DNA of 64,000 nucleotides from a virus (IMGVR_UViG_3300020404_001578:79639-143638); one strand, 5' to 3'; positions 5,306 to 58,316 are shown, counted from the first letter of the stretch. Made by a program: numbers and translations. The notes: generated by a model from the letters alone, not told the origin.

Positions 5306-5327
5306 GGTCTTCCGACTACCCACTTAG

Positions 5328-7420: not shown

Positions 7421-10400
7421 TCACCTCAATTCTGGGCTACCGTATGGTATGAAGGTTGTTCCTATCCTCTTGAGTTCTTTGTATGTGTTTGGTACACGCT
7501 TTGATTTTAGTACAGGCATTGATGCTTCAATGATGTATTCCATTTCTGGTAGTCTTGGGTGTTGATGGAATCCGTTTGCCTTGATTTCATAGATGTAAGA
7601 TGGTTCCTTTAGTAATTCAAATGCGCCTTCGTATACTTCGGCTATCATAAACTGACCGTTGATATAACCAATTTCTAAGTCGTCATTAGTAGAATCAATT
7701 GCCATAGCAAGCGCATACTCATAGTTAGGTGTAGCAAATACTACTTCCCTGCCGACTAAATGGTTGTAGTTTTGTTGTAATCTGTTGATGTTGGGTACAG
7801 ATGAACCATGGTACATGACCTTCCTTCCTATTGGGTTTTGCTTTATGGTAAGAATCAATTCAATTCCAGAAGCATCCATCCACTCTCTGTACTCCTTAGT
7901 ATCAGTAATTTGTCCGGATTCAAAGTCAATGCTATCCCACCACTTTACTATGTTCTCAATCTGAGAAGGCTTCACACTTCCTTTGTGATAGTAAGCAATA
8001 TTACTGTCGGCTTTCATTCCTTGAGATAGTGGATGATTAATCTTTAACAATGCAATATCTTTCATTGGTGTTTCCTTTACCTTCTCGTACAAAGCAGGAA
8101 GAATCTTTCCTTTCCAATTAGGGAACGGATAAATCAACGGCACAACTCCATCTTGGGCTTTGATACCTTCTTTCAGTATACCCTTGACTTCTGTTTGAGG
8201 TACGAATGCTAGACCAAATGGTGGTATGGCTAACTCTGGATTTTTCTTTACTGTTGGGCTCATTAGTACAGGAACCTTACCGTACTTACGCTTCTCTGTC
8301 ATTCCTACCCATGGTACATCGGCACACTTAGGCATATTTGCAATGCCGTTCTTTCTTGCCCATCGCCAAGGGTCATGTCCCCATACCCATAGTGATAGTA
8401 GTTTACGGGATGGTTTATTCTGGGTCTTTTGTTTCTTGACTAGTGGGCCTCTTCTATACTCGGCGGCTTTATTGTACGGATATGCGGCTGCTCTACCATT
8501 GAATCTATTTTGTCGTAGCATCCAACCCCAGTCAGTAGTATCTTCCTTGATTGGTACTGAACTGTCAAGTCCTGTCCATTTTTCTAGTGCAAGTTCGTAG
8601 TATCTCTTTGTAGTCTGAGGTCCGGGTTTGATGTAGTCTTTTGGTCCAGTAAGTCCTAGTTTCTTACGCATACGAATAATCCTGCGCAAACTATCTTGTC
8701 CGCTAAAGATTCCCTGCTCTCCTGCTTCTTCTGGTGTTAATCCTGCTACGTCAAACCAGTCTGATTCCATGAAGGCTTTGATTTCTTTATTCTTCATGTT
8801 CACTTGGTCTACCCACTGTCTGAACTCTTCTAACGTAGGTTTGTTGCCCTTTCGTGGGTTTGCCTTGATTAACCCCGCATCAATTGCTAACTGATAGTCT
8901 GGCATTTTCTTGTTGCCTTTCTTGACTGTGTTTCCTAATGTGACGAATGAGTAAACTCTTCCTGCAGCCCATTGGTGTTGTTGAACGCCGGGTCGGTGTC
9001 CTCCTCTCCATGCTGCAAGACCTTTATTGTAGACCTTCTGTAAGATTGACTTCTTGATGCCTGTTGCCTTAGCAATCTTGGTTAAGAATTTGCCTCCTTT
9101 AGGAAGTGGCCCGTACATTTGGATGAACTTCCTCTTGTACTTACTAGGTACAGTCTTGTAGCCTCTTGCTGTTGCTTTAATGTCTGACTTCCAGTATTCG
9201 TATGCCTTAGGGTCGTTAATGTCGTACTTGTACCCCTTGTCAATTTCTTTTGCTGCAATAAGCATCTCTTCTTTGTTTAGACCTTTGAGATATCGCTTAG
9301 GTATCTTTCTACCTTCTGGGGTTTTACTTGGATTTCGTTTTAGTTTCAAGCCACCTTTGCTAATACTCTTGTATAGTAAGTCCTTGAGTTCATCTGGTGT
9401 ACCGCCGTTTCTTTCAAACGCCATCAGTAGTACGATTATTGCGTCAGTGATTTCTCCTTCCACTCCATCTTTACCGGGTTCTTTGTAAGGCTTGAATCCC
9501 TCTTTGATTAAGACTTCTTCAGCGATTTCACCAGACTCTTCCATCAGTTTGATTAATCGGTTAAACAAGGTGTACTGCCTATCTTCACTTATTTCAAAAA
9601 CAACCGGAATTAGTTCTTCAAAGGTTAGGGGTGGATTCTTTTTCTCAATTAACTCAGCAATGTGTTCATTACCTACTACTCTTACCTTACGACCTTTGTA
9701 TTGGAACTTAACTGAGTCTAGTGCATCTCTTTTTGGACCTGCTCGCAACTTGTTTTTATCTTTCTCAAGTTTAGCGGCGTTGCTTTTCTTAAGGAAGTCT
9801 AAGTCTTTGTCTTTGTTTTCATCCATGTAAATTTGCCAGAAAGGTCCGTAGTAGTGAGCCAGTGCATCAGCAGTAGACATTACTGCCCCATACATTGTGG
9901 TTTGTCCGTTCCAATCTGGGGACTTGATTCTTTCCATATCATCAATGTACTGTACTAACTCATCAGCGTAGGCTTTGCCTTTGTGTTTAGAAACTAGATT
10001 TCTGACGAGTTCAAAGTTATCCTTATCGCCTAGCATCTTTGGGTAGTCGTGCATCCAAACCATGTCATTGAATACTTCCATTTCATCGGTCCCGGCATTT
10101 GGTTTAAGCGAGTGAACAATGGCCTTGACATAATCAAGATGATGTTCAATATACCATTCATGGTGTTTGAATGATGGGTCAGTTGCTGCTCTACGTGCTT
10201 CTGTCTCAACAGGGCAATGGTGCGGGTTGTTTGCTGCCAAAAATTCATCAAATGAATATCTTCTTTCTACCGACCCACTTGCAAGTCCTTGTCCAATATT
10301 GAGAGCAATTTGCATAATACGTTCTGGTGTTGGTTGTTTAGTTAATGGTATACGCTTTAGTTGATTCAAGAAGTGTATTGGTAATACATCACCATTTTCG

Positions 10401-13400
10401 TCAAACTCTTTTGATTTATCGCTAGGGTCAAAGTCTGGGTCTTTGATTGGATGTAGCCATGTGTAGTTAAGTGGTTCAGTTCCATAGCGTTCTTCAATTT
10501 GAGGAATCTGTTCATTCCACCAAACCCTGCCATTGAATGTAGGGTCTTCGCCTGTAATTTCTTTCGTGCGTGCCAAGTATGCTCTATTAATCATGGCTTC
10601 AAAATCTGATTGAATGCTGTAAGATGCATTACGCTTTAGCCTAGGTTTGTTTAACATCTTGGATAACTTCTCAATCCATACTTGGTCTTTTTCTCTGTTG
10701 AGCATTTTGTAGAATGCTAATATTGCAGAAAGGGACTGATATCGTACTCCCTCTTTGACTTCATAATCTAACATCTCCGCAGTAAAGTCTGGTCCACCAC
10801 CTATATCTAATTCAAGTCCATTGACATATCCTTCTGAAATATCTGGCTTGCCGGGGATGATTGCATCTACATCATTCATTATCGGTTTGAGTCCGTGCAT
10901 ATACAATGCTGCGCCTGCAATCAACATCGCTTTGTTGGCGTCAAGGCCTTGTTGTTCTCCAAATATATCTAACGCTTCTCTTATTTCTGTAGCAGTTGGC
11001 GTTAGGTTTTCAGATGGATTCCTCTTTGCTTTCTTTAGTTTGATTGCATCGCCAGTAACAATAATTACCGCAGGAATTGTTTTGTTGAATTCTACAATAG
11101 GAAGACCTAGGCTTCCTCCGGTTTCCACTGTAAAGTTCATTACACCATTACCGCCTCTTCGCTTTGTTTCTTCTGTTAGTTCATCAATAGCAAATGCAAT
11201 AGCAAGTGCTGTACGCTTATCTGTTTTCTTTTCGTAGTCTTCTACTAGTCCTAGGAAAATGTCCTTTACGTTTCCTACTAGTTCTTTTGGAATGTTTCTG
11301 TCTACTTCAATCTCAGCCGATACTGCGCCTAAGTTAGTATGCTTCATCGTAGGTACAGTGGTAAAGAATTGCATACCTTCAATGTTAAATTGGGGATTAC
11401 GCCTTGCTTTTGTTTTCTTCTTCATTTCTTCAATGAAGTTGGCGTACACTTTCTGGGCGGCCTTGATTCCCGATGTTGCATTAGGATGGAACCTAGCACG
11501 TTGCTCCATTGCCATGGCTGCTTGAATCTTATGTGCATGAGTCTTACCAGAACGCTTGATGATGTTTACTGAGCGTTCAGCAGTTTCTTTGTCTTTGAAT
11601 CCTAACCCTTGAATGGTTCCTCTTGGGTCTTCATCGGTGTATAGGTCTGAATGTTCGCTTGGGTCTTGCCCCTCATATTTCTTTGGAATACGTGGATTTA
11701 CTCTGTACCTCGGACCTCTTTCTCTAGGTTTGATTTTTACTGATTTGACTACGGTATCGGGTTCTCCGTGGCTCTTTGAATTATTATCAAAGTCAGTGAT
11801 TTCTCCACCTGTTACTAGTTTGGCACTCTCCCAATCTACTTCTGCTCTACCTCTTACCATGACGTGTGCCGATGGTTCACGAAAGTTAAATGGCGCACTG
11901 TTAAGGTATACTACCCCGTCAATCTCTACCCTTTCAACATATATTGAATCAAACCCTTGTGAATCTCTAGAATATTGTATAATCTTTCTGTCGCCCCACT
12001 TTGCAATGTTAAAGTAGTGAAGTCCTCCTGCAAAGCGTTCACGTCCTTTTGGTATAGGTGTTGGGTCCCCAACCACGTAAACATCTTTGTTGGTATCTAG
12101 TGTTGCCCCATCAAACGATTTGCCTGTGATATCCTCGTCCGTATCAGCATTGTAGAAATGGCTTGTACCATCTTCGGTCTTATCCCTGCGGACTACTTTG
12201 ATTGGAGGGTTCAATTTGGATATGGGAACTGTTTGAGAAATCAAGTCCGCCGACTTTAGCCAAGGGTATTTGTTCACTGCTTCACCGGGAAAGAAGTTGG
12301 AGTTGTTTAGAACCATGGCGGCATTCATATAATCGTCGTCATCAACAGGAATCACAGTATCAAACTGCGAAGCCTTGCGCTTTTGATGGTATGCAAACTT
12401 AGATGCAGCCTTTGCTTGGCGTGGAGTAATACCACTTCTTGATGATAGTTTCATTTCGTGTTGTTGTGGTGATTGGTTGTTTTGTAGGTAAACAATGTGT
12501 AGGTGTGGAAGACTGTCTTTCATTCGTAGTGCCATCGTAGGTGAAGTGTACATTACTGTCTTTGGTGCCTGTAGTTGTTCCTTAGTATATCCATAACAAT
12601 GTCCTTTCTCGTCCATAGTCCAATAGGGCATTTGGTCGGCTTTGACTAATTGCATGAATGATTCTTTATCGTGGTCTACAGAATCTCGGTTAGGTACACG
12701 CCCTACGGGTGAAGGTTGCGTGGTGTGCATCGGACATATCTGGTATCCGTGTCGTCCTAATTCTTTGGCGACTTCACGGCGACCGCTTCCCATTGGGCCT
12801 GCAATTACTATCGTGGATTGGCTCGGTTGTTGGACAACACCACGAACGTCCTTTTTGCAGTGTTTTGGATTAATCATCGGTTGCACAGGGAAACTTACGT
12901 TTGCTGCAGGTAAAACATCTGCTTCGGGTGATTCTGTTGTTTCGTTATCCGACGTCGTGTCCGACGACGGTTCCAATAACTCGTCACTTTTCACATCGTA
13001 AACTTGAGCGAGAACTTGACCCACACGGCTGTAAACTTCTGATGCTGCGCTGACTCCGTAATCTTCTCTTGAAGGAATACCTAGAATGTTTAATTTTGCA
13101 GGGTATGCAAAACCAAGTGTGGCTGTGGCAATATACCCGTCCTTTAACGGCATTCGTATGTATATTCCTTGTCCATATGACATACGGAAATTGCTACCAA
13201 ACTTACCATCATTCCCGACTATTTTACGTGGGTCGTAATCTTCAAACAACATTTCAGCCGTGTCTGGGTCAATGGCAATCTCATATGATGCGCCATATTG
13301 AACATTGTAGGGCATTTTGGGTGGAGGGTTAGGAATTACATTATGTTGTAAAATATGCTCAATGGTTTCAATGTCCTGCTTGTTTCGTACTGCAATGTAG

Positions 13401-14989
13401 GCATCGCCATATTGCCCTGCTTGAAGTAGTCCTTCTTGTCTTGCTGTGGCTGCTGCGCTAGTGAACATATACGGGTGGTGGGCGGTTCTGTCAGCCATGT
13501 GAAATATCTTACACAGTAAGTACAGGTCGCCTGCAATTGTTTGGAATTCTTCTTCTGTAATACCTCTTCGTCCTACATCTGATTGTAATAGAAGTGAGAT
13601 GTGGTCTGTCAAATTTTGAGATAGTCCAATTTCTGGTGCTATCTCTTCTCTAAACATCTCAGCACCGATTACTGAATGGTGTCTGTTATCTTCCTTTTCT
13701 CTACGCTTTGCAATGTCATGGTATAGCCCAAGCATCAATAGAACATCTGACCTAGTCCAACCTGCTTCTATTTCAGTGTCTAAGTATTCTCGTAGTTTAG
13801 CCCTGCTTTCCTTGCTTAATCCTTCCCAAGTGTAAAGTCGGTCTTTACCGTCGGCCTTTGGCAAGAAGTGATACTTGGTCCACCAATAGACGTACATAGT
13901 GTGAGCAAACTCATCTCCGCCGTAATGAATCCAATCATAGTCTAAGCCTTTCAACTCACCAAGGGCGGTTGAGATGTGACGGTCGTCCAACCCTATTCGC
14001 TTCGCTACTCCTAAAGGGGTACCACTCCCCGGATTTTTTAATGGGGTTTCTTTCTTGATATGTGAATGATACTTGATGTTCATAATATGCCCAAAGCGTT
14101 CATTCATTTCTGCGACCCATTTTCTAGTAACCTTCTCGCAGAACTTCTCGTCTGATATTGCATCGCCCTTGTATTGTTCTTCAAGTTTTGATAGCATCGT
14201 ATCTAAATCATCAATGAACTTACCTTCGTCCATTCGTAAGTAACTATTTCTTCCTTTATCTCCTTTGGTAGTTATCTCAAAGTGGTCTAAGCGATTAGCC
14301 ATAATGGTGTAGTAATGTCTAATTCCCCACTTGTATGCAGCGTCAAGATACCATTGGATATCATCGGCACTACTGAAAGATGGTTCATCCTTTGATGGGT
14401 GAGTGTGATACATTACCTTTGCATTCTCAACGTGTTTGTTGATTTTAACATAAGGCATGATTAAGGAACCTTTTCTATGGTAGATTTGTTTTCCCACTAC
14501 CCATCCATAGGACTCTCCTCTTCTTGTGACAAACGACCATAGTTTGTTGCGGAATGAAGGCGAATGTAATTCTGTTATTGGATGTATACGGAACCATTTA
14601 GTTGGTTTCTTTACTGTCATTTTTCCTAATTCTTCTTCAAATGCTTCCACTGTTGTTGGGTTCTGGAAAGCAGTATCTCCAAAGAATCTACCATGTACTA
14701 GTGTTTGTACTGATGTTGGTGGATTGTTGCGCACATACTCTATCTTGGTTTCCTTTGTTGGAAACTCTACACTATGCTCTATACCGTCTACTTCAAACAC
14801 TGCAACCTTTCCTAAGAACGGTTTTAGTGCCTGTAGTGCATATTGTTTCTGGATTTCATCAGAAAATAATACCGACCATGTCCCTTTGTTAGCATCAAAG
14901 TTAGATGATACTACATCAAACGACCCGTATACCTCTCCCGCCTTAGGAAAGCCAAAGACCATTTCAATCGTCTTCTGACTCGGTTCCAT
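7421..14989 (-). CDS. Giant NP-delimited polyvalent polyprotein (JAB, HD, guanylate kinase-like, YbjQ, NTase, HD, MazG, DUF3140-like, ART-like domains)
   Basis: Likely start MEPSQ (14989). Motifs: YHTHP..SSADD; YHDIAK..HS..HMAD; IAGPMGSGR; IAGAALYMHG..DVD; MHDYPK..AD; EESGEIAEE..GEITD; VNM..WGHDP; YHGSS..VFAT..YIYEI. Confidence 0.8.
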   Translation of the reverse strand: MEPSQKTIEMVFGFPKAGEVYGSFDVVSSNFDANKGTWSVLFSDEIQKQYALQALKPFLGKVAVFEVDGIEHSVEFPTKETKIEYVRNNPPTSVQTLVHGRFFGDTAFQNPTTVEAFEEELGKMTVKKPTKWFRIHPITELHSPSFRNKLWSFVTRRGESYGWVVGKQIYHRKGSLIMPYVKINKHVENAKVMYHTHPSKDEPSFSSADDIQWYLDAAYKWGIRHYYTIMANRLDHFEITTKGDKGRNSYLRMDEGKFIDDLDTMLSKLEEQYKGDAISDEKFCEKVTRKWVAEMNERFGHIMNIKYHSHIKKETPLKNPGSGTPLGVAKRIGLDDRHISTALGELKGLDYDWIHYGGDEFAHTMYVYWWTKYHFLPKADGKDRLYTWEGLSKESRAKLREYLDTEIEAGWTRSDVLLMLGLYHDIAKRREKEDNRHHSVIGAEMFREEIAPEIGLSQNLTDHISLLLQSDVGRRGITEEEFQTIAGDLYLLCKIFHMADRTAHHPYMFTSAAATARQEGLLQAGQYGDAYIAVRNKQDIETIEHILQHNVIPNPPPKMPYNVQYGASYEIAIDPDTAEMLFEDYDPRKIVGNDGKFGSNFRMSYGQGIYIRMPLKDGYIATATLGFAYPAKLNILGIPSREDYGVSAASEVYSRVGQVLAQVYDVKSDELLEPSSDTTSDNETTESPEADVLPAANVSFPVQPMINPKHCKKDVRGVVQQPSQSTIVIAGPMGSGRREVAKELGRHGYQICPMHTTQPSPVGRVPNRDSVDHDKESFMQLVKADQMPYWTMDEKGHCYGYTKEQLQAPKTVMYTSPTMALRMKDSLPHLHIVYLQNNQSPQQHEMKLSSRSGITPRQAKAASKFAYHQKRKASQFDTVIPVDDDDYMNAAMVLNNSNFFPGEAVNKYPWLKSADLISQTVPISKLNPPIKVVRRDKTEDGTSHFYNADTDEDITGKSFDGATLDTNKDVYVVGDPTPIPKGRERFAGGLHYFNIAKWGDRKIIQYSRDSQGFDSIYVERVEIDGVVYLNSAPFNFREPSAHVMVRGRAEVDWESAKLVTGGEITDFDNNSKSHGEPDTVVKSVKIKPRERGPRYRVNPRIPKKYEGQDPSEHSDLYTDEDPRGTIQGLGFKDKETAERSVNIIKRSGKTHAHKIQAAMAMEQRARFHPNATSGIKAAQKVYANFIEEMKKKTKARRNPQFNIEGMQFFTTVPTMKHTNLGAVSAEIEVDRNIPKELVGNVKDIFLGLVEDYEKKTDKRTALAIAFAIDELTEETKRRGGNGVMNFTVETGGSLGLPIVEFNKTIPAVIIVTGDAIKLKKAKRNPSENLTPTATEIREALDIFGEQQGLDANKAMLIAGAALYMHGLKPIMNDVDAIIPGKPDISEGYVNGLELDIGGGPDFTAEMLDYEVKEGVRYQSLSAILAFYKMLNREKDQVWIEKLSKMLNKPRLKRNASYSIQSDFEAMINRAYLARTKEITGEDPTFNGRVWWNEQIPQIEERYGTEPLNYTWLHPIKDPDFDPSDKSKEFDENGDVLPIHFLNQLKRIPLTKQPTPERIMQIALNIGQGLASGSVERRYSFDEFLAANNPHHCPVETEARRAATDPSFKHHEWYIEHHLDYVKAIVHSLKPNAGTDEMEVFNDMVWMHDYPKMLGDKDNFELVRNLVSKHKGKAYADELVQYIDDMERIKSPDWNGQTTMYGAVMSTADALAHYYGPFWQIYMDENKDKDLDFLKKSNAAKLEKDKNKLRAGPKRDALDSVKFQYKGRKVRVVGNEHIAELIEKKNPPLTFEELIPVVFEISEDRQYTLFNRLIKLMEESGEIAEEVLIKEGFKPYKEPGKDGVEGEITDAIIVLLMAFERNGGTPDELKDLLYKSISKGGLKLKRNPSKTPEGRKIPKRYLKGLNKEEMLIAAKEIDKGYKYDINDPKAYEYWKSDIKATARGYKTVPSKYKRKFIQMYGPLPKGGKFLTKIAKATGIKKSILQKVYNKGLAAWRGGHRPGVQQHQWAAGRVYSFVTLGNTVKKGNKKMPDYQLAIDAGLIKANPRKGNKPTLEEFRQWVDQVNMKNKEIKAFMESDWFDVAGLTPEEAGEQGIFSGQDSLRRIIRMRKKLGLTGPKDYIKPGPQTTKRYYELALEKWTGLDSSVPIKEDTTDWGWMLRQNRFNGRAAAYPYNKAAEYRRGPLVKKQKTQNKPSRKLLSLWVWGHDPWRWARKNGIANMPKCADVPWVGMTEKRKYGKVPVLMSPTVKKNPELAIPPFGLAFVPQTEVKGILKEGIKAQDGVVPLIYPFPNWKGKILPALYEKVKETPMKDIALLKINHPLSQGMKADSNIAYYHKGSVKPSQIENIVKWWDSIDFESGQITDTKEYREWMDASGIELILTIKQNPIGRKVMYHGSSVPNINRLQQNYNHLVGREVVFATPNYEYALAMAIDSTNDDLEIGYINGQFMIAEVYEGAFELLKEPSYIYEIKANGFHQHPRLPEMEYIIEASMPVLKSKRVPNTYKELKRIGTTFIPYGSPELR

Positions 14990-19445: not shown

Positions 19446-19447
19446 AA

Positions 19448-22321: not shown

Positions 22322-22893
22322 GCCCCGACAATGAAAGCGATAGTCTTGGTCTTACCCTTACCGCTTACATTGAGGGTGACGGAGTACTCAGTTATGGATT
22401 TGCCGTCTTGATTAATTTCTTTGTCAAAGTCAGTTTTTGGTTCAATATCAAACGATGATTGGACAACTCCTTCTCCGTACTGTTGTTCGGTGTTCTTGTT
22501 GTCCCTCATTGAGGTTGTTCTCATTGTTTCTGACTTGCTGACAGATTTGGTGCTACCATCATTGAATGTTGCTTTGATGGTTGCTGTAAGCGAATCTTCT
22601 CCATTATGGATTGCAAAGATGTTAATTTCACCATTGGTATCAAATCCTACTAGGGTTTGCTTTTGTGTGCTTCTTACATTAAGTGGTTGGAGTACAAATC
22701 CTGTACCACGTTCTTGGTATGCGCCTCCTGCGAATAAAGTTAAATCTCTGGCAGGAAGTACAGATGGTTTACTTGTTAGCCAAAGGTATGTTAGTCCACC
22801 AATCAATGCAATGCCACCAAGGGCTCTTGTTGCTTCTCGTTCATCAGTGGTCATTCGCTTTGACCCGCCGCCATCATAATTGTATCCTACCAT
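22318..22893 (-). CDS. Membrane-anchored beta-rich protein
   Basis: N-terminal TM ALGGIALIGGLTYLWL followed by a beta-rich domain; GAGGTGA RBS. Confidence 0.6.
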   Translation of the reverse strand: MVGYNYDGGGSKRMTTDEREATRALGGIALIGGLTYLWLTSKPSVLPARDLTLFAGGAYQERGTGFVLQPLNVRSTQKQTLVGFDTNGEINIFAIHNGEDSLTATIKATFNDGSTKSVSKSETMRTTSMRDNKNTEQQYGEGVVQSSFDIEPKTDFDKEINQDGKSITEYSVTLNVSGKGKTKTIAFIVGA

Positions 22894-22902
22894 CTATTCA
22901 CC

Positions 22903-23289
22903 TCAAAAGAAATTGGTTAGTGCGTCTACACCTCTACCTGCCTTCGCACTAGCCTGCGCAGGTAATGTTTTCAATCCTTTCGCAGCATTAACTACTACTT
23001 CAGGAATAAGACCTCTACCGGGGAATACTGCATCTTGCTTAACTAATACATCATATTCTTCTAGTGTATCAACCAGTCCTCTAAGTAAAGTAAAAACCAA
23101 CAACACATCGGAAGCAGTATTGACTTTGTTCCATGTTCTGTTTTTCATACCGAACTGCTTGTACTTTCTTGTTCTTTTACTTAGGGTCATTAGTTTGGCC
23201 GAGTTGATTGCAAGAATGAAACTCAATGATAGTGCATCAATAGTCTTCCAACCCTGTGCGGATATGCCAAATAGTGTGTGATTTGCCAT
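22903..23289 (-). CDS. Hypothetical protein with hydrophobic segments
   Basis: Start MANH is coupled to the upstream stop (TAATG). Confidence 0.55.
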   Translation of the reverse strand: MANHTLFGISAQGWKTIDALSLSFILAINSAKLMTLSKRTRKYKQFGMKNRTWNKVNTASDVLLVFTLLRGLVDTLEEYDVLVKQDAVFPGRGLIPEVVVNAAKGLKTLPAQASAKAGRGVDALTNFF

Positions 23290-27107: not shown

Positions 27108-28275
27108 CTAATGGGTCAGGATTTTGTTTTCCATAAGTGATACAAGGATTCTGACCGCAACCACAATTCATAGCAGGGTTCTCTAAGGGTCTTCCACTAC
27201 CGCCTTTTTCTCTTTCAGTTTTGAGTCCTAACTCTTTTGTTAGTAACTCATCTGGTGATAATGGTACAATGTTGCCATAGAAGTCCTGCTTGTGAGTATC
27301 TGGGTTAAATGGTATGTCCATTGCTTCTGTTTGCACTTTTGTCCAAGGCTTACCACTTGCTTCAGCCTTCTCTATTTGTTGTTCTATAGAAACAATCATT
27401 CTGTCGCCACCTTCAAGGCTTGCTTTAAGAGCGACACTGTTTAGGAATTTACCGACTGACTCACTAGGCTTACGTGCAACCTTTGATGAGCCTTGCATTC
27501 CGGGTACCCCTTGCAGTGATTGCATTACTCTGTTGTATGAATGGAAAAAATCAACTGCGGACTTAATTGCACTAGTAGGTACTAAATTTTGGTCTGCTTT
27601 TAGCCCTAAGAAGAATGGCTTACCTTTGCCTATGTCTTTTGCTGCGGTCATTAGAGATATTGCTATATCGCCTAATTCACCCATGATTTCATGGCATAGA
27701 TTACTTGTTGATGAGATTGTTCCTATCAATCTGAAATGGTCGGTATCTTCCTCATGGCCTTCCATTGTCTTTCTTACTTCAAAGTCATCTAGTAGTAATT
27801 TAGTGTCAGCGAGAATATCTGCTGCACTACGGGCCCTTTGTCCAAGTGCGTTATACTGTGCTTTGAGTTGCTTACGGCTCTTACGAGTATTCGTGCTTGT
27901 TGCTACTGGCCATCCCTGTGCAATGGCAATTAGGGTGTCTTTTGTTGTCTTTATGATTTTATCAGCAAGACGCTCTAGTTGTCTTATCTCCAATGAAAGC
28001 AAAGCATTGGGCCTGTCTTTGATGAAAGCATCTATTTCTCCTCCATATTTTTGACTGACCATTTCATCTATAGAACCTAGCACTACCTCTCTTTGTTGCA
28101 TTGCTTCTGTTGCTGCAGCATCAATAACTGCTTGAACTACTGCGGAGTTAGATACTGTTGAAGTAACAGATACTCCTTTTTTATCTAACTCGGTCTTTCT
28201 TTTTTCTAGTAGTTTCCTGAGTTCTTTTTTACTACCGTGGTCCATTTGTTTTAGAAGTTCATGTAGATTACTCAT
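27091..28275 (-). CDS. Helical hypothetical protein with C-terminal NP peptides and CGCGQNPC motif
   Basis: 394 aa; four NP motifs in the last ~75 aa. Confidence 0.6.
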   Translation of the reverse strand: MSNLHELLKQMDHGSKKELRKLLEKRKTELDKKGVSVTSTVSNSAVVQAVIDAAATEAMQQREVVLGSIDEMVSQKYGGEIDAFIKDRPNALLSLEIRQLERLADKIIKTTKDTLIAIAQGWPVATSTNTRKSRKQLKAQYNALGQRARSAADILADTKLLLDDFEVRKTMEGHEEDTDHFRLIGTISSTSNLCHEIMGELGDIAISLMTAAKDIGKGKPFFLGLKADQNLVPTSAIKSAVDFFHSYNRVMQSLQGVPGMQGSSKVARKPSESVGKFLNSVALKASLEGGDRMIVSIEQQIEKAEASGKPWTKVQTEAMDIPFNPDTHKQDFYGNIVPLSPDELLTKELGLKTEREKGGSGRPLENPAMNCGCGQNPCITYGKQNPDPLDDLYV

Positions 28276-28276
28276 T

Positions 28277-31009
28277 CTATAACCTCCTTAACATTTCATC
28301 TATCAATAGTGCTTCTTGAACTTCGTCAAGATTTGCGTTATCAAACGCATTACCTACGACATCAGCCACATTACGTTCTCTACGGTCAGCAAGGTTATTC
28401 ATTACTCCACGAAGTAGGTCTGTAATGCCTCTACGTTCTTCGCTAGTTTGTCTTCTTGCTCCTAAGCAATTATCAAGACACCAAACTAGTACGTGATAAA
28501 TAAATGCTGTATCATCGGCACTTGCTACGTAGTTGTACTTAGTACGTGATTGCTTTAGAATTTCTCTTAGAATAAACATACTGGATAATCCATTGCTTGT
28601 ATCTACATTTAGATTAACCATACCTTGTCCACTTTGCATAGCATACTGGAAGAAGTCGTCCCAGTGCATCTGAATTATTAACTGACAGAACTCCATACGA
28701 TTTCTAGCGTTTACAATGTTATCTCCGCCTGCATCAAAGAGATGTTTACTTGCTCCTGCAGCAGTGATATATCCCATGGTTTCTAGCACACGGTTGTTTA
28801 GTAGTTGATTGTAAAGTGTGTTGTATCTTGCAAACCCTGTAGTCAATTTGCCTTTTGGTTGTGAATTGATTATTCCTAACATTTCACTTAGGTCATCAAA
28901 GTTTCTTCTTTGTGTTGCATCCAGTTGCATCATACTATCTGACAATGTCATAAGAGAATATGCAGTTCTTGCTACGACTGATAATTTATCATGGTAGTAT
29001 TTTAGATTATCTTCCTCTGTAGAATACCGTAGTGCATCCCTAATCATTCTATATGATAGTCCATACCTACGCTGACGTTGTTCATCTTCATCATACCATG
29101 ATACTTCTACTTCAGCGTCTGGGTCAAATCTAAAGTCGCTATTGATTGAAGGCGAAAGGAAGTCTTCTCTACTAAATGTAGTGCCGTTAAGTCCTGCGAT
29201 TTGTTCACGATACTTTGCAAGTACTTCCATCATTGAGTAGACCAACTCTTCTGGCCAACCCACAGGGTTGGGGTGAAGTCCCGGTAAATCAATCTCAAAC
29301 AGAATAGGTGTATTTGCCATTACGACTGTATGGTAGTTTACCTCATACAAATTCGGGTTGTTGGCTTGATAGTCTAGTATTGCTTGAACGGTTTCTGCTT
29401 TAGTTCCGTATCCACCTTCTACCCCAGTCATATTCATTGCAAGGTCAATCAATTCGTCTTTTTTCATCCTGTTTAGTTCGGCACGGGTGTAATTACCAAT
29501 GTATGGCATTGAAACCATTTCACCGGTTTGTCTGGTTCCCCTCCAAGGTGTTCGGTTCCTACGCAATGCTTTGTTTAAGTTATTTTGACTGAGCGTGTCT
29601 TCTGCATTACGTGTCCGATTGTATAGTCTTCTAGCGGCTTCAACATAGTCCTGAACTCGGTGAGCAGTGATTTCTACTTCGTCTTGTTCAAGTGGTGCGA
29701 ATAGTGCTTCTAGAATACCCGGGACGTCTAAGTTTTGTATTCTTTCTTGTAAGAACGCCCAACTAAATGCTGCTGTACCGGGTCCTACTGCTGCAGTATG
29801 ATGTAATGGTACTAATGCAGGTCCTCCACTACCTTCTCTTTCTGAATATCTAACAATAATGCGTTGTCCTGTATTTGCATACCTTGGTGGTTCGCCTCCT
29901 TCATTGAGTACTCTTTCGGCTCTTGTGACGTGAGTACGACGATTACGGGCTCCTTCTAATTCAATATGCGGTGGAGGAAGTAGTACGAATTGCATATGCG
30001 GTATCAAAAATATTGGGTGTACCATTAGGGACATATCCTTGCCGTGGTAGAAGTCCGCAGCATCAGTTGCAAGACGTTGCATCATGTATTTCATTTGAGA
30101 ACTATAGCGTCGTCTGTTTCCTGCACGGGCACTTCTAGAGTTTCCTCCCACTGGAGTTGAATCCAAACCTACGTTTCGTCCCTCTTCACCTAGTCTTGTG
30201 AGGCTTGGAAGAATTTCTGCGTTCATATGACGGATGAAATTATCTACGGTGGCCGAATGCACTAAGTAGGGTTCAAGTACGTAATTACAGAATCTGTAAA
30301 GTACATCGGTATTTACTTGATACTTGCTTGACATACGATGGTTATCATAAAATTGGTCTACATCGGACATATGGTATGAAACCATTGGCTGACCATCGGG
30401 TGATGTACTAACCTCAGTATATGGGTCAATACGATATCCTTCTTCACTAAAGTATTCTTTCAACCTGCGGTCAATCTCAGCATTGAAGATATCTTCTTGG
30501 CCTGCAAGAATCTGAGCAGGTCTAGCAACTATTGGGCGTGGATTACTACGTACATACTCGCTACCGGGGGTGATACTATCAACATCAACAATTCTTGCTC
30601 GCATGATTCCTTGATGTGGTAGGCTTGGTGAGCGAACCTTCATGTTAAGTCCTGAAATGATATTACATGTTCCTTGGAAGGCTCCATGTTGCTCAAACAT
30701 ATCATGTACTAATGATGCGGACAGATGCTTTGGTGAAAGTAAAGGAAAATAGTTTCCTCTTGGGTCTGGTCGCTCATTTTTGAATTTAGCGAAAGCGTAT
30801 GGTTGTGGTGGGTTAGATAGCATTGCTGACCCCGGTTCAATTAGGAAATCTCCTCCACTTTGTACGGTTTTCAAATCAACCATTCTACCATTTGTTGTTT
30901 GAATGGTAAAGTTGGTATCAACATAACCTGCTTCTCTAAGTGTTTTCTTGGCCAAGTCGTATGCTTCCAAGAAGGAAGACAAGGGCGTGGAAACTGTTAG
31001 AGGAATCAT
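28277..31009 (-). CDS. Large NP-motif protein with a Rho-N/HeH-like nucleic-acid-binding module
   Basis: ELNRMKKDELIDLA..GTKAETVQAIL; LSNP, RSNP and ANNP motifs. Confidence 0.55.
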   Translation of the reverse strand: MIPLTVSTPLSSFLEAYDLAKKTLREAGYVDTNFTIQTTNGRMVDLKTVQSGGDFLIEPGSAMLSNPPQPYAFAKFKNERPDPRGNYFPLLSPKHLSASLVHDMFEQHGAFQGTCNIISGLNMKVRSPSLPHQGIMRARIVDVDSITPGSEYVRSNPRPIVARPAQILAGQEDIFNAEIDRRLKEYFSEEGYRIDPYTEVSTSPDGQPMVSYHMSDVDQFYDNHRMSSKYQVNTDVLYRFCNYVLEPYLVHSATVDNFIRHMNAEILPSLTRLGEEGRNVGLDSTPVGGNSRSARAGNRRRYSSQMKYMMQRLATDAADFYHGKDMSLMVHPIFLIPHMQFVLLPPPHIELEGARNRRTHVTRAERVLNEGGEPPRYANTGQRIIVRYSEREGSGGPALVPLHHTAAVGPGTAAFSWAFLQERIQNLDVPGILEALFAPLEQDEVEITAHRVQDYVEAARRLYNRTRNAEDTLSQNNLNKALRRNRTPWRGTRQTGEMVSMPYIGNYTRAELNRMKKDELIDLAMNMTGVEGGYGTKAETVQAILDYQANNPNLYEVNYHTVVMANTPILFEIDLPGLHPNPVGWPEELVYSMMEVLAKYREQIAGLNGTTFSREDFLSPSINSDFRFDPDAEVEVSWYDEDEQRQRRYGLSYRMIRDALRYSTEEDNLKYYHDKLSVVARTAYSLMTLSDSMMQLDATQRRNFDDLSEMLGIINSQPKGKLTTGFARYNTLYNQLLNNRVLETMGYITAAGASKHLFDAGGDNIVNARNRMEFCQLIIQMHWDDFFQYAMQSGQGMVNLNVDTSNGLSSMFILREILKQSRTKYNYVASADDTAFIYHVLVWCLDNCLGARRQTSEERRGITDLLRGVMNNLADRRERNVADVVGNAFDNANLDEVQEALLIDEMLRRL

Positions 31010-31020
31010 CTTTTATCACC

Positions 31021-31443
31021 TCATAGTCCATACTTTGGGTCTAGGATTAGAATTTGTCTGCCTGCTTCATCTGTAGTGTACACATAGTCTTTAGGAGGTG
31101 TCAAACGATGTGTATGGCGAGAAGTAGCGTAATCACGAATTCTATTTGGTTGTGTATTCACATTGTACTTGACGTGTTGGTTTAGTCCGCCCATGTTGCT
31201 ACCCTCTTTGTTGCTCATTACATTGTAGTAGGCTAAAGGTAGGCCAAAAAGAAGTCCCACTGCTGCACCACGGATTATTACATCAGTGTTACTTCGGGTA
31301 CTCTTGAAGCCGAGTGTATAGTTGAATACGTGCTTGTCAAGAAGCGTTCCTAATCCTGCGACTCCTGCTAATGCTCCACCAATTGTTGCAGTTTTCAGGA
31401 TGTCGTTTGGTGTCGTGCTTTTTATTGTATCAATGAAGGTCAT
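31021..31443 (-). CDS. Small membrane protein
   Basis: Two Gly-rich hydrophobic helices; NMGG motif. Confidence 0.6.
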   Translation of the reverse strand: MTFIDTIKSTTPNDILKTATIGGALAGVAGLGTLLDKHVFNYTLGFKSTRSNTDVIIRGAAVGLLFGLPLAYYNVMSNKEGSNMGGLNQHVKYNVNTQPNRIRDYATSRHTHRLTPPKDYVYTTDEAGRQILILDPKYGL

Positions 31444-33581
31444 GCTTTCTTACCCCTTTTCTTTGCTATTTTTCTTTGGTGAGCATCATACATTGAGCCT
31501 TTGAAAGCATTAGGTATGATGAACCTTGTTGGTAGACTCTTTGTACTCTTGAATACGGGCATCCCGTATACATCACCAAACTTAGCGAAGGCTTTCTTGA
31601 GTTCAGCACTACCCTTCATCAATGATATGGTTCTGTAGTTTTTGCCGTCTACGTTTGTATTGGCTGCTTGGAAGTGTGAAGTTGGTAATCGCATAAGCCA
31701 TGGAACTTCTTCTCCGGAATCCTTGTGGGTCGCAGTATGTACGAATACGCCTCCGTAAGATTGCTTAGGTGGAACTAGTTTTGTTAGCCCTAGTTTGGTT
31801 TCGCCTTTGGTCTTACCAAGTTTGCGTTCTTCATCGGTGAGGTTCTTCTTTCTGGGAAACGTAAGTTTTGTCTTAGGGAATAGTTGAACATAAAGGAATT
31901 TTCCTCTTCCAAGTGGGACTTCTCCCCCATATCCCGGATTGTTCCGTGATTCTCTTGCTTTTCCTCTAACAAAATCATTTCCACTGGCAGGAATTCTGTC
32001 ACGTGGTCTGCGATTGCGGTTTCCTCCGGCGCCGTCACGATTGCCGCCGTCACGATTGCCGCCGCCACCGCCGCCTTGACCCGGTCTGCCTCCGCTTCGG
32101 TTGTTACCTTGTTGGCGGTTTCCTCGGTCTTGACGACGCTCGTCTAATAGGCGTTGTTCTCCTTGGCGTTGTCTTTGGGTGTAGGAGTCATCTCCTAGAC
32201 CGCCGGTTAAGTTCTTGAATTCATCTTCGGTAATCTTAACGAGTTTGTCTTTTGCTTTCATCCAACGGCCAATAGGCTTGGAGTTAGTTAGTGAAACAAC
32301 TTCAGTGTAAACACCTTCTGCTAGATTCTTCATGTTAAGGGTGTTATCTTTCTTCAATGCTGCAGCAAGGCTTGGGTGGTACATCATAATGTGTTGCTTG
32401 GCAGGGTCATTCTTCCCACCTTTGAAGATAACAATCAATGGTTGGTGTCCAACATAGTTATCGTTTGTTGGGTCAAACATACCGACATAGCCTGTTTCTG
32501 GTTTGAAGTTGTAAGGTGGCTTCATTAGAATGTCAAGGTTGGTTCTCATAGTGAGAATGTCCCCTGCATCGTATGCAGCCACGGTTTGGAGCATCAATTC
32601 GTATGCACCGATAGGGTCGTGATTTTCATTGGTGGTTCTAAACGCATAGTTGCGACCATGTGCTTGAGTCATGGTTTTGATTTCCTTGACTACCGATGCT
32701 TCTTCGGGCAGTGGTGGTCGGTATCTACTGGTCAAAGATTGGTAGATTGCCCAACCTTCATCACGGTGGACCAATGGTAATTCGTAGTAGTTGTATCGCT
32801 TGATACGCATACTTGCGATGATATCTCTGGCAAGTTTGAACATTCTGTTGAAGTTTGTTGTTGCCGTGTCAAGGTTCTGGTGAATGGTGAACCCATCTGT
32901 CATTAGGTTGTATACTAGGGAGCCTTTCTGTAATAGGTCCGCTTCGTTTCCTCCATGAACCATACGGCGCATTAATTCCATGTGGTCACGGTCTTTCTCC
33001 CAATTGAATAAGAAATGGTGGATGATTGCCCTATCTTCTTCTGAAACTGATGCGTTTAATTCTGCACCTACGTCGGTCATGGTCATGTTGTCAATGTATT
33101 CTTTCCATGTACCTGCAGGAACTAGAGTAATCAGGTGTGAGTCACGGAAATCTGCTGCTCGGATTCCTGCTCTTTCAAGACCACGGATGAATGGTCTTAG
33201 GATACCTCCGCCTCTTTCGCTACCTCTTACAAGACGCAATGCTCTCCATGGGATACCAAGTAGCGATTGCGCTAGTGATTCTTGTCTTGTTACTGGGTTA
33301 GATAGCAAGTAGTCCTCATTGGGGTCTTGCGTACCCATAATCATTTCATCGTCTGTAGTCGTTCCTAACATATCTTCATCATCCTCTATGTCTCTTTCTT
33401 CAATACTGAATGCTAATTCTCCGGGCGGTACTGGATTACTCCTTACCATCTTTGTCAGTCTTCGCCCATTATGGTTTGCAGTTAGTATTGTTGCTCCTGA
33501 TGATGGGTTGGACATTACGGTATAATTATCGGTGCTTATTGCACCTCCTTCTGGCAAATTGAAAGTTTGAACTTGCCTCAC
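31440..33581 (-). CDS. NP-motif protein with an RG/N-rich linker and basic C-terminal domain
   Basis: MSNP, RSNP, LSNP and RNNP; GGNRDGGNRDG low-complexity stretch. Confidence 0.6.
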   Translation of the reverse strand: MRQVQTFNLPEGGAISTDNYTVMSNPSSGATILTANHNGRRLTKMVRSNPVPPGELAFSIEERDIEDDEDMLGTTTDDEMIMGTQDPNEDYLLSNPVTRQESLAQSLLGIPWRALRLVRGSERGGGILRPFIRGLERAGIRAADFRDSHLITLVPAGTWKEYIDNMTMTDVGAELNASVSEEDRAIIHHFLFNWEKDRDHMELMRRMVHGGNEADLLQKGSLVYNLMTDGFTIHQNLDTATTNFNRMFKLARDIIASMRIKRYNYYELPLVHRDEGWAIYQSLTSRYRPPLPEEASVVKEIKTMTQAHGRNYAFRTTNENHDPIGAYELMLQTVAAYDAGDILTMRTNLDILMKPPYNFKPETGYVGMFDPTNDNYVGHQPLIVIFKGGKNDPAKQHIMMYHPSLAAALKKDNTLNMKNLAEGVYTEVVSLTNSKPIGRWMKAKDKLVKITEDEFKNLTGGLGDDSYTQRQRQGEQRLLDERRQDRGNRQQGNNRSGGRPGQGGGGGGNRDGGNRDGAGGNRNRRPRDRIPASGNDFVRGKARESRNNPGYGGEVPLGRGKFLYVQLFPKTKLTFPRKKNLTDEERKLGKTKGETKLGLTKLVPPKQSYGGVFVHTATHKDSGEEVPWLMRLPTSHFQAANTNVDGKNYRTISLMKGSAELKKAFAKFGDVYGMPVFKSTKSLPTRFIIPNAFKGSMYDAHQRKIAKKRGKKA

Positions 33582-42985: not shown

Positions 42986-43022
42986 GTTATGGCCCAATCT
43001 ATTCTTCGTATTAACACCTACG

Positions 43023-56784: not shown

Positions 56785-56904
56785 TCATATGTATCTAATA
56801 CCGGAACCGGGTTTGCGATACCGATTAAGTAGATACTGTAGTAACATCCATCCTGCGGCGAATCCAAATCCCCACAAGAGTCCGTATAGCACGGTCATTA
56901 ACAT
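56785..56904 (-). CDS. 39-aa membrane microprotein
   Basis: MLMTVLYGPLVGFGFAAGWMLLQYLLNRYRKPGSGIRYI; exactly fills the space between two hairpin elements. Confidence 0.6.
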   Translation of the reverse strand: MLMTVLYGLLWGFGFAAGWMLLQYLLNRYRKPGSGIRYI

Positions 56905-56922
56905 ACTAGGGGCATTTGCCCA

Positions 56923-57237: not shown

Positions 57238-57256
57238 GTCTAGGGCTGTTAAGCCT

Positions 57257-57598: not shown

Positions 57599-57623
57599 AG
57601 TTGTCTAAGGCCGTCTAAGGCCG

Positions 57624-58157: not shown

Positions 58158-58166
58158 CTAAGGCCG

Positions 58167-58295: not shown

Positions 58296-58316
58296 ACCTA
58301 GGGCCAATTGGCCTGT

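What the first reader, a model, noticed from the sequence alone, without database searches (positions are those of the whole stretch)
7421..33581. NP-delimited polyprotein system: unrelated enzyme domains joined by a recurring (K/R)x-Asn-Pro junction motif
Seen: the ~2500-aa protein has 15 NP dipeptides (RNNPP, FQNPT, LKNPG, IPNPP, MINPK, KLNPP, RVNPR, RRNPQ, KRNPS, ANNPH, KKNPP, KRNPS, KANPR, KKNPE, KQNPI). They fall between, not inside, the recognisable domains (JAB, HD, GK-like, YbjQ, NTase, HD, MazG, DUF3140-like, ART-like). The same motif punctuates 23289..27107 (KNNP-HAD-LDNP-Nudix-KVNP/YANP-YbjQ-RNNP) and 14964..19445 (RPNP-JAB-IKNP). It also occurs in 27091, 28277, 31440 and at the N-terminus of the protamine-like core protein (LVNPP). 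JAB and YbjQ modules recur in different polyproteins, each NP-bounded. Inference: NP is a protease cleavage site and/or capsid-loading tag. It would let the virus package and release an interchangeable enzyme cargo, and new domains could be added simply by flanking them with NP. Polyvalent proteins are known in MGEs, but a shared junction code across a 26-kb locus in an archaeal virus looks undescribed.
Basis: partly seen in the sequence, partly recalled or inferred. Interest (0 to 1): 0.92.

Follow-up and report, generated by a model that had tools for sequence, protein, structure and literature searches.

The report
Asn-Pro seams join swappable viral modules
In an uncultured marine virus of about 110-140 kb, giant multi-enzyme proteins are chains of interchangeable modules that each begin with a strictly conserved Asn-Pro pair; related viruses gain, lose and swap modules exactly at these pairs, which look like cut-here marks, but no cutting has been shown.

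Summary
P0001 (7421-15034, 2537 aa) has 15 Asn-Pro (NP) pairs against 6.5 expected. Across 27 family members there are 389 against 136 expected.

- **Seams are module edges.** Rearrangement breakpoints between homologues fall within 5 residues of an NP in 51-60% of cases, against 7-8% for random sites. Pieces cut at NP align end to end.
- **Seams are conserved.** Seam NPs stay invariant down to about 30% identity, inside otherwise variable linkers. Codon use at them is ordinary.
- **Modules move between viruses.** Some modules are 80-92% identical between viruses whose core is only 50-65% identical. Two near-identical genomes differ by one 98-codon module whose breakpoints lie inside the Asn-Pro codons.
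- **A wider motif.** The seam reads [P/V/A/I/T]-[L/K/R/M/I]-x-N-P-[P/S/G] and is largely confined to block 7421-33581.
- **A leader case.** The arginine-rich, membrane-anchored core protein carries a conserved 9-residue leader ending in NP.

Cleavage, and any packaging role, remain untested. Three candidate peptidases are encoded:
- a highly conserved transglutaminase-fold enzyme, homologous to virion protein gp34 of Salisaeta phage SSIP-1;
- a papain-type module;
- two JAB domains.

The host domain is unresolved. This scan has noted similar NP seams on other viral DNA at least ten times, never with proof of cutting. I found no published description.

The parts
7421..15034 (-). P0001, a 2537-aa polyvalent protein. 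It has a conserved N-terminal core (about 100-aa beta-rich module, a 21-aa peptide, JAB, HD, an unnamed module, guanylate-kinase fold) followed by variable modules (YbjQ, DUF5824 and several of unknown family).
   Evidence: The Asn-Pro codons lie at 14720-14725, 14657-14662, 14030-14035, 13325-13330, 12866-12871, 12206-12211, 11693-11698, 11393-11398, 11015-11020, 10223-10228, 9632-9637, 9329-9334, 8855-8860, 8237-8242 and 7832-7837.
14036..14662 (-). JAB/MPN-type module of P0001 (residues 125-333), bounded by NP on both sides. It is a candidate peptidase.
   Evidence: The motif E174...H210-x-H212...S..D is invariant in 10 homologues down to 33% identity. It was recognised by motif only and has no Pfam hit.
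14964..19445 (-). P0002, a 1493-aa protein with a primase-like N-terminal region, ATP-dependent ligase OB domain, then NP, a JAB module, NP, a C-terminal region and NP.
   Evidence: DNA_ligase_A_C 733-874. In one search, N900, N1178 and N1380 are invariant in 4 genomes. In one search there are 44 NP against 21.7 expected in 8 homologues.
19448..22321 (-). A 957-aa non-modular protein of the same operon. It serves as an internal control without seams.
   Evidence: 0 NP here. In 12 homologues there are 22 NP against 28 expected, and none is conserved.
23289..27107 (-). P0003, a 1272-aa protein: zinc ribbon, NP, papain-type peptidase, NP, HAD phosphatase, NP, NUDIX, NP, YbjQ, NP, C-terminal module.
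25212..26660 (-). Papain-family (C1) cysteine peptidase module of P0003 (residues about 150-632). In this genome it carries an insertion of about 170 aa between the His and Asn motifs.
   Evidence: Profile A3 matches papain, falcipain-2 and cathepsin L at E about 1e-6. Gln63, Cys69, His233 and Asn420 of A3 are invariant. The module is present in 6 related loci and absent from one relative's near-complete P3.
27091..28275 (-). P0004, a 394-aa largely helical protein. Four NPs cluster in its last 70 residues, and it ends in the tail NPDPLDDLYV.
   Evidence: One search gives 4 NP against 0.6 expected (p about 0.002).
28277..31009 (-). P0007, a 910-aa protein with NP at residues 66, 156, 551 and 581.
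31440..33581 (-). P0005, a 713-aa protein with NP at residues 25, 49 and 95 near the N-terminus, and NP at 548 directly after an Arg/Gly/Asn-rich stretch.
4244..5323 (-). P0006, an arginine-rich repeat protein (RRRKTT/SPARR units) with a C-terminal hydrophobic, membrane-type region. Its conserved leader MALAE(V/L)(M/V)(L/M)V is followed by NPP-RK. The real start is probably the Met at 5302.
   Evidence: the leader plus NPP is identical in pattern in all related contigs.
42296..43048 (-). Transglutaminase-fold Cys-His enzyme of 250 aa, the most widely conserved candidate peptidase. It could equally be an entry or lysis enzyme.
   Evidence: Homologous to SSIP-1 structural protein gp34 (blastp E 2e-12). 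206 homologues, the 120 best listed being at least 53% identical, on contigs up to 143 kb. C125 and H158 are invariant. Transglut_core/DUF553 are found in 20 of 32 members. The model's fold matches 3isr, TglA, PNGase, LapG and PeiP.
6143..6928 (-). FtsK/HerA-type packaging ATPase. It places the block in the morphogenesis operon.

Best explanation
Block 7421-33581 lies in the morphogenesis operon of a large uncultured marine virus. Its genes encode giant polyvalent proteins that are chains of independent modules.

Each module starts with Asn-Pro. The pair is preceded by a loose [P/V/A/I/T]-[L/K/R/M/I]-x and followed by Pro/Ser/Gly. Selection on this seam acts on the protein, not the DNA. Whole modules are inserted, deleted and exchanged between viruses at the seam.

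I propose that the seam is a processing signal. A virus-encoded cysteine peptidase, or less likely a JAB peptidase, would cut the chains at or next to Asn-Pro. This would happen during particle assembly or after delivery into the cell. It would release single enzymes and small spacer peptides, and would remove the 9-residue leader of the arginine-rich core protein.

Shown: the seams, their conservation, their confinement to module edges, the exchange of modules, and the presence of peptidase genes.

Inferred: packaging of these proteins in the particle, cutting at the seam, and which enzyme does it.
For: - NP excess and its position at module edges.
- Seam NPs are invariant within variable linkers down to about 30% identity.
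- Codon use at seams matches bulk usage, so selection is on the protein.
- Subsite-like preferences: position -3 is almost never charged, and position -2 is 85% long aliphatic or basic. The extended motif occurs at 18 of 40 NPs in the block against 2 of 31 elsewhere in the window.
- Inter-NP lengths are bimodal, with spacers of 10-25 aa and domains of 100-250 aa and none above 300 aa. This differs from an exponential expectation.
- Only 18 of 389 NPs split a module that is unsplit elsewhere, although composition alone predicts 136 NPs.
- The core protein has a conserved short leader plus NP. From my own knowledge, this resembles the removed leaders of adenovirus pVII and T4 internal proteins.
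- In relatives, natural protein ends lie 2-3 residues before the seam position.
- Peptidase candidates are present.
- The Asn-Pro bond is a known cleavable bond, in RsgI and in reovirus mu1/VP5 (PMC10328401).
Against: - There is no observation of protein ends.
- Most proteases dislike Pro directly after the scissile bond (my own knowledge).
- No candidate peptidase has been tied to the seams. The papain-type module is itself a variable module and is absent from one relative's P3. The transglutaminase-fold enzyme could be a cell-wall or entry enzyme like PeiP or PeiW.
- A conserved NP sits inside the primase active-site motif of P0002, so NP alone cannot be sufficient for cutting.
- SSIP-1, the only cultured virus sharing a gene with this one, shows no NP excess in its giant protein gp43.
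Confidence: 0.5

Rival explanations
1. The seams are never cut. Asn-Pro would act as a rigid turn or insulator that lets neighbouring modules fold independently. Alternatively it would be a repeated docking tag that binds the capsid interior, scaffold or membrane, so that the whole chain is loaded into the particle.
For: - The seams lie in predicted flexible linkers.
- Many seams per chain would give multivalent binding.
- Stand-alone relatives keep M-x(3-6)-NP at their start, so NP may matter even without an upstream module.
- An earlier follow-up in this scan favoured a structural reading (e1-5468567).
Against: - Ordinary linkers do not keep two invariant residues across 30% identity.
- Tandem NPs 4-25 residues apart and the leader on the core protein are hard to explain as hinges.
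- The purge of NP from module interiors is not predicted by a hinge.
Confidence: 0.28
2. The seams cut themselves. The Asn side chain attacks its own peptide bond through a succinimide, as in RsgI and reovirus mu1/VP5, and no protease is needed.
For: - Asn-Pro is the bond used by those two systems (PMC10328401).
- Asn followed by Pro cannot deamidate, so chain cleavage is the reaction left open to it (my own chemical knowledge).
- Self-cutting would explain why no single protease is universal.
Against: - In the known cases the bond sits in a defined fold that supplies the catalytic surroundings.
- Here the flanks are variable, predicted disordered, and lie between unrelated modules.
- Uncatalysed Asn-Pro cleavage is slow, on a scale of weeks or more (my own knowledge).
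Confidence: 0.08
3. NP is only a footprint of recombination. AAY-CCN would serve as microhomology for module exchange and would have no role in the protein.
For: In the L016/L021 module insertion-deletion, the breakpoints lie inside the Asn-Pro codons and share the 6-nt repeat AAATCC.
Against: - Both Asn codons and all four Pro codons are used in bulk proportions. Only 5 fixed bases remain, which is too few for targeting.
- Seams of the never-shuffled N-terminal core are invariant as amino acids across 30% identity.
- Neighbouring positions show amino-acid class preferences, not nucleotide preferences.
Confidence: 0.05
4. The transglutaminase-fold enzyme uses the Asn side chain as an acyl donor and cross-links cargo to a lysine of a capsid, membrane or core protein. 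The seam would then be a covalent anchoring tag rather than a cut site.
For: - A highly conserved transglutaminase-fold Cys-His enzyme is encoded, and its SSIP-1 homologue is a particle protein.
- Lys-Asn isopeptide bonds exist in the HK97 capsid and in pilins (my own knowledge).
Against: - Known transglutaminases use Gln, not Asn.
- Nothing here links the enzyme to the seams.
- Cross-linking enzymes into the particle would hinder their release.
Confidence: 0.04

Closest known systems
Polyvalent proteins of phages and conjugative elements (Iyer, Burroughs, Anand, de Souza, Aravind 2017; PMC5512222)
   Same: Many unrelated enzymatic domains sit in one very large polypeptide of a mobile element. 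Domain architectures are strongly mosaic between relatives. Peptidase domains occur in the same chains. That paper proposes delivery with the DNA and release of domains by proteolysis.
   Different: That paper describes no shared junction motif: 'linker' occurs 0 times and no Asn-Pro is mentioned. Its typical domains (zincin-like MPTase, ArdC-N, DarA, ParB-like) were not found here by Pfam. Here a fixed dipeptide marks every module edge and also the leader of a core protein.
One-motif maturation cleavage of particle proteins: adenovirus protease on pVII and others, ASFV pS273R on pp220/pp62, T4 gp21 on internal proteins, giant-phage prohead proteases (SPN3US gp245, PMC10052503)
   Same: A short recurring motif marks where many different particle proteins are cut. 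Short N-terminal leaders are removed from DNA-binding or internal proteins. The cut products stay in the particle and enter the cell.
   Different: From my own knowledge, those motifs are Gly-Gly-X, (M/I/L)XGX-G, L/I-x-E or S/A/G-x-E, not Asn-Pro. Their proteases are identified and cleavage is demonstrated, and neither holds here. The substrates here are strings of enzymes rather than structural precursors.
Asn-Pro autoproteolysis in the RsgI periplasmic domain and in reovirus mu1 / aquareovirus VP5 (PMC10328401)
   Same: The same dipeptide. Cleavage occurs between Asn and Pro by attack of the Asn side chain.
   Different: In those proteins there is a single site inside a dedicated fold, with conserved surrounding residues. 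Here there are dozens of sites in variable, apparently flexible linkers between unrelated modules.
[quoted passage not shown]
   Same: It shares the transglutaminase-fold protein (gp34, annotated as a structural protein). It also encodes a giant structural protein (gp43, 2319 aa).
   Different: No other gene is detectably shared. gp43 has no NP excess (3 against 2.5 expected). Its genome is 44 kb, against about 110-143 kb here.

Membership tests
Polyvalent proteins (Iyer et al. 2017) | Two to fifteen or more distinct, mostly enzymatic domains in one polypeptide of a virus or plasmid | tested here: met
   - P0001: HD, guanylate-kinase fold, YbjQ, DUF5824 and a JAB motif.
- P0003: C1 peptidase, HAD, NUDIX, YbjQ.
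- P0002: ligase OB plus JAB.
- Sources. Relatives add SET, PAP2, NUDIX and guanylate kinase.
Polyvalent proteins (Iyer et al. 2017) | Mosaic, rapidly changing domain architecture among relatives | tested here: met
   There are 27 module families plus 20 singleton segments in 27 proteins, in different orders.
Polyvalent proteins (Iyer et al. 2017) | Signature domains of the class (zincin-like MPTase, ArdC-N, DarA, ParB-like and others) | tested here: not met
   Pfam scans of P0001-P0003 and of single modules found none. Divergent versions cannot be excluded.
Polyvalent proteins (Iyer et al. 2017) | Packaged in the particle and delivered into the host with the DNA | not testable with these tools
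   Only the gene position supports this: the block lies in the operon with the packaging ATPase and the core protein.
Protease-processed viral polyprotein or particle precursor | A recurrent short consensus at the boundaries of the mature products | tested here: met
   The consensus is [PVAIT]-[LKRMI]-x-N-P-[PSG]. It lies at module edges.
Protease-processed viral polyprotein or particle precursor | A cognate virus-encoded protease | tested here: inconclusive
   Three kinds of candidate exist: a transglutaminase-fold enzyme, a C1 papain-type module, and JAB domains.
Protease-processed viral polyprotein or particle precursor | Mature products with termini at the consensus | not testable with these tools
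   This needs proteomics or N-terminal sequencing.
Asn-Pro autoproteolytic domains (RsgI-PD, reovirus mu1/VP5) | The Asn-Pro lies in a conserved fold that supplies the catalytic environment | tested here: not met
   Flanks are variable. Seams fall in stretches with pLDDT below 50 between unrelated modules.
2A / StopGo ribosome-skipping peptides | C-terminal NPGP with a conserved D(V/I)ExNPGP context | tested here: not met
   NPGP occurs at 3 of 389 seams and at 0 in the window's block.
Papain family C1 peptidases (for the P0003 module) | Gln, Cys, His and Asn catalytic residues in family order, with sequence similarity to the family | tested here: met
   Q63, C69, H233 and N420 of A3 are invariant. 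The profile matches papain and cathepsin L at E about 1e-6. Pfam's own model did not reach threshold.
Transglutaminase-like cysteine peptidase superfamily (for 42296-43048) | Cys-His(-Asp) core in a transglutaminase fold | tested here: met
   C125 and H158 are invariant in 32 sequences. Transglut_core/DUF553 are found in 20 of 32 members. Fold matches include 3isr, TglA, PNGase, LapG and PeiP at E 1e-4 to 1e-2. The third catalytic residue was not assigned.

The most novel reading that the evidence does not exclude
Asn-Pro would be a general 'cut here' code. It would be read by a particle-borne transglutaminase-fold cysteine peptidase shared by a large, undescribed assemblage of membrane-containing viruses of prokaryotes, including SSIP-1 relatives and the other NP-seam viruses this scan has met. 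Any protein flanked by the seam would then be loaded into the particle and released as a free enzyme in the next host. That would amount to a plug-and-play cargo system whose modules are traded between viruses.
Probability: 0.2. Interest if true: 0.9.

Novelty: new variant of a known kind. Interest (0 to 1): 0.78.

Why it matters
If the seams are processing sites, this would be a new protease-site code. It would also give a simple rule for how large viruses of marine microbes assemble, diversify and deliver a changing kit of enzymes, many of them acting on nucleotides, into host cells. The rule is directly testable with a two-module reporter and three candidate enzymes.

Even if the seams are not cut, an invariant dipeptide that defines exchangeable protein modules is useful. 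It lets module boundaries be read from sequence alone in thousands of unannotated viral giant proteins. The recent module insertion-deletion between near-identical genomes shows this exchange is happening in present-day populations.

Tried and rejected
- **2A/StopGo reading.** NPGP occurs at 3 of 389 seams.
- **Helix N-cap reading.** Positions +2 and +3 are rich in Pro and Gly, and few seams precede a helix in the model.
- **DNA-level motif.** Codon use at NP matches bulk usage.
- **Seams as fused gene boundaries that keep a start codon** (lead from e1-5595005). Met follows within +2..+7 at 42 of 389 seams, about 66 being expected from the 3% Met content (my arithmetic).
- **Wider kinship with SSIP-1.** Only gp34 matches. 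blastp, phmmer and hhalign of seven window proteins against 21 SSIP-1 proteins gave probabilities below 4%.
- **Papain-type module as a universal seam protease.** It is absent from one relative's near-complete P3 and from that 71-kb record, which is only about 51% complete.
- **Search for the transglutaminase-fold gene in three IMG/VR records.** No match, but all three fragments break at P3, upstream of where the gene would lie, so this is uninformative.
- **PDB sequence search with the transglutaminase-fold profile.** No hit.
- **Cultured relatives.** tblastn of the packaging ATPase against the phage library gave no match.
- **ESM Atlas look-ups of two structural candidates.** No usable name, so the capsid protein type was not determined.
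- **Complex prediction** (peptidase with a seam peptide).
- **Aalto et al. 2012 (SSIP-1 proteomics).** The paper is not held.
- **Short pieces of P0001 homologues on 143-kb and 13-kb contigs.** These may be frameshift artefacts of the assemblies, so I did not use them as evidence of natural gene splits.

Full report
**What is there**

The window carries a long minus-strand operon. It contains:
- a FtsK/HerA-type packaging ATPase (6143-6928);
- an arginine-rich protein with a hydrophobic C-terminal region (4244-5323);
- very large proteins of 2537, 1493, 957, 1272, 394, 910 and 713 aa.

A replication module lies elsewhere: MCM, ERF, primase small subunit and ATP-dependent ligase, plus a RusA-like resolvase. 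No whole genome is held for the window. Relatives sit on marine, estuarine and salt-marsh contigs of up to 110-143 kb.

That is 15 against 6.5 expected from composition (shuffle p about 0.004). P0003 has 9 against 4.2, and P0004 has 4 against 0.6. In 27 members of the P0001 family the total is 389 against 136, a ratio of 2.2-3.7 in every member.

NPs sit between domains:
- In P0003 the Pfam envelopes of HAD, NUDIX and YbjQ each lie between consecutive NPs.
- In P0002 the JAB motif lies between NP900 and NP1178, which are invariant in four genomes, as is NP1380.
- In an AlphaFold model of P0001 residues 1-940 (mean pLDDT only 55), all five NPs fall in stretches with pLDDT below 50 that start right after folded blocks.
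- The block at residues 740-910 has a guanylate-kinase fold.

**The decisive comparison: relatives swap modules at NP**

Homologues of P0001 range from 1476 to 2513 aa.
- Among five proteins, 60% of 80 internal BLAST alignment ends lie within 5 residues of an NP. Random sites give 7%, none of 2000 random sets reaches the observed value, and the next dipeptide scores 26%.
- On 21 further proteins not used before, the figures are 51% of 830 ends against 8.5%. NP ranks first of 174 dipeptides.
- Cutting every protein at NP and clustering the pieces gives discrete modules that align end to end, with median coverage of 98% on both sides. A conserved N-terminal core is followed by a combinatorial set of modules.
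- YbjQ and NUDIX modules occur in both the P0001 and the P0003 families.
- Module identity disagrees with core identity. One module is 81-92% identical to viruses whose core is 50-65% identical. The DUF5824 module is 71% identical to viruses whose core is 27-48% identical. Modules therefore move between lineages.
- Two contigs whose P0001 genes are 100% and 99.96% identical differ by a single 294-nt module. The breakpoints lie inside the Asn-Pro codons and share the repeat AAATCC.

**The seam is selected as protein**

- Both Asn codons and all four Pro codons are used at seams in bulk proportions.
- In a ten-sequence alignment reaching 33% identity, N104, N125, N569 and N722 and their prolines are invariant while the linkers around them vary. 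The fifth seam is shifted by a few residues in the most distant pair.
- From 194 distinct contexts, position -3 is P/V/A/I/T and almost never charged. Position -2 is L/K/R/M/I in 85%. Position -1 is polar. Positions +2 and +3 are rich in P, S and G.
- This extended motif accompanies 18 of 40 NPs in block 7421-33581 but only 2 of 31 elsewhere in the window. In the four block proteins not used to derive it, the count is 6 of 16.
- The 957-aa protein in the middle of the same operon has NP at chance level and not conserved.
- Inter-NP distances are bimodal, at 10-25 and 100-250 aa, with none above 300.
- Only 18 of 389 NPs split a module that is unsplit in another member, although composition alone predicts 136 NPs. 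Chance NPs therefore seem to be purged from module interiors. This last point depends partly on defining modules by NP, so it is an inference.

**Leader and ends**

The arginine-rich core protein begins MALAE(V/L)(M/V)(L/M)V-NPP-RK in every related contig. This is a short conserved leader ending at a seam. In relatives, several proteins end at '...EAGVR', two or three residues before the place where P0001 has '...AGLIKANP'. Module ends are therefore natural protein ends. Other relatives start with Met, three to six residues, then NP. Some of these short forms may be assembly frameshifts, and I give them little weight.

**Candidate enzymes**

1. *Transglutaminase-fold enzyme, 42296-43048.*
   - It has 206 homologues, the 120 best listed being at least 53% identical, on contigs up to 143 kb.
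   - Cys125 and His158 are invariant.
   - Pfam Transglut_core/DUF553 are found in 20 of 32 members.
   - The model (pLDDT 70) matches a putative cysteine protease (3isr), TglA, PNGase, LapG and PeiP.
   - It is the only protein shared with the cultured phage SSIP-1, where the homologue gp34 is annotated as a structural protein.
   - It could equally be an entry or lysis enzyme.
2. *Papain-family module of P0003.* The profile matches papain and cathepsin L at E about 1e-6, with invariant Gln, Cys, His and Asn. It is itself a module and is missing from one relative's P3. The hydrophobic-or-basic preference at -2 would fit the S2 pocket of some papain-family enzymes if the cut were one residue before Asn. 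That is my speculation.
3. *JAB domains in P0001 and P0002.* They were recognised by motif only. The P0001 motif residues are invariant in 10 homologues, and the P0002 domain's core histidines in its four.

None of these could be tied to the seams. The complex predictor was unavailable.

**Readings considered**

- *Cutting by a viral peptidase* is my best explanation (0.5). It accounts for the subsite-like motif, the spacer peptides, the leader, the peptidases in the operon and the absence of NP inside modules.
- *An uncut hinge or docking tag* is the main rival (0.28).
- *Self-cutting of Asn-Pro* is chemically established in RsgI and reovirus mu1/VP5 (PMC10328401). There it needs a dedicated fold, which the seams lack.
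- *A pure recombination footprint* is contradicted by free codon use and by invariant seams in the never-shuffled core.
- *A 2A-like skip* is excluded by the near absence of NPGP.

**Host**

For an archaeon:
- MCM matches only archaeal viruses in the phage library, at 25-29% identity.
- One homologue of the transglutaminase-fold protein is labelled as from a Euryarchaeota MAG.
- Many late genes have GAGGTGAT-type ribosome-binding sites. Flavobacteria rarely use these (and my own knowledge).

Against:
- An MCM 78% identical lies on a contig binned as Flavobacteriales.
- RusA and ERF are typical of phages of bacteria.

The question is unresolved. The capsid protein type was not determined. 'Tailless, membrane-containing' rests on the ATPase type, the membrane-anchored core protein and the SSIP-1 link.

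**Known or new**

Polyvalent proteins are known (PMC5512222), but that paper describes no junction motif. My literature searches found no Asn-Pro seam in virus particle proteins.

Within this scan, similar seams were noted and followed up on other viral DNA at least ten times. Examples are e1-5309875, e1-5360282, e1-5625262, e1-5350430 and e1-3642411. The verdict was always the same: real, conserved, cutting unproven.

What this window adds:
- a replicated breakpoint statistic;
- incongruent module identities;
- a recent NP-to-NP module insertion-deletion resolved to the base;
- an internal control protein;
- the gene-level link between this virus group and SSIP-1 through the transglutaminase-fold enzyme.

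Noticed in passing
L016:14367-20093 and L021:14367-20387: Two contigs with otherwise identical P0001 genes differ by one 294-nt module. The junctions are ...CTCAAAAATCC|TCGCAC against ...CTCAAAAATCC|ATCCTC... and ...CAAAGAAATCC|TCGCAC. This is an NP-to-NP insertion or deletion with the 6-nt repeat AAATCC.
   Followed up: yes
relatives P0161, P0171, P0188, P0217, P0155, P0174; window 27091-27120 for the only local counterpart: Different giant proteins of relatives end in a shared acidic tail after a last seam: NP-x-WRHG-x-(F/M)-x-E-DDPF-x-x-F. In the window only P0004 has a similar tail (NPDPLDDLYV). This may be a docking peptide.
   Followed up: partly
window 4244-5323 (-): The core protein combines about 190 residues of RRRKTT/SPARR repeats with a C-terminal glycine- and alanine-rich hydrophobic region. 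It looks like a DNA-condensing protein anchored in a membrane. The opposite strand carries a spurious Arg-rich ORF (4719-5327 +).
   Followed up: partly
window 56900-61000: Upstream of most small genes there is a short GGCC...GGCC-type hairpin followed by TAG and then ATG within a few bases, for example GGCCTTAGACGGCCTTAGACAACT-ATG.
   Followed up: partly
window 7400-45000, gene starts: Many late genes have a strong GAGGTGAT or AGGAGG ribosome-binding site 5-9 nt before the start (17 of 42 genes). The small-gene array at 56-64 kb mostly lacks it.
   Followed up: partly
window 43023-43448 (-): A RusA-like Holliday-junction resolvase (phrog_140, E 3.5e-39) lies next to the transglutaminase-fold gene. 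Together with ERF it gives the genome a phage-of-bacteria flavour, beside the MCM and primase.
   Followed up: no
window 25600-26110 (-), P0003 residues about 395-560: In this genome only, the papain-type module carries an insertion of about 170 aa between its His and Asn motifs. The insertion starts at an NP (ILENPRL). Relatives have 0-60 residues there.
   Followed up: partly
window 40682-41578 (-): A 298-aa protein with a collagen-like Gly-X-Y stretch (residues 145-178). Some homologues of the transglutaminase-fold protein are fused to collagen repeats (P0110, P0113, P0129 and others).
   Followed up: no
L024 (PAND01000013.1) and P0073: Relatives of this virus are binned into a Flavobacteriales MAG and into a Euryarchaeota MAG. 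At least one of these bins is likely contaminated by viral contigs.
   Followed up: no
L025:268-2058 (Pelagibacter phage HTVC008M gp130): The DUF5824 module of P0001 also forms the C-terminal domain of a 596-aa 'cytidyltransferase' of a T4-like pelagiphage. The module therefore travels well beyond this virus group.
   Followed up: partly
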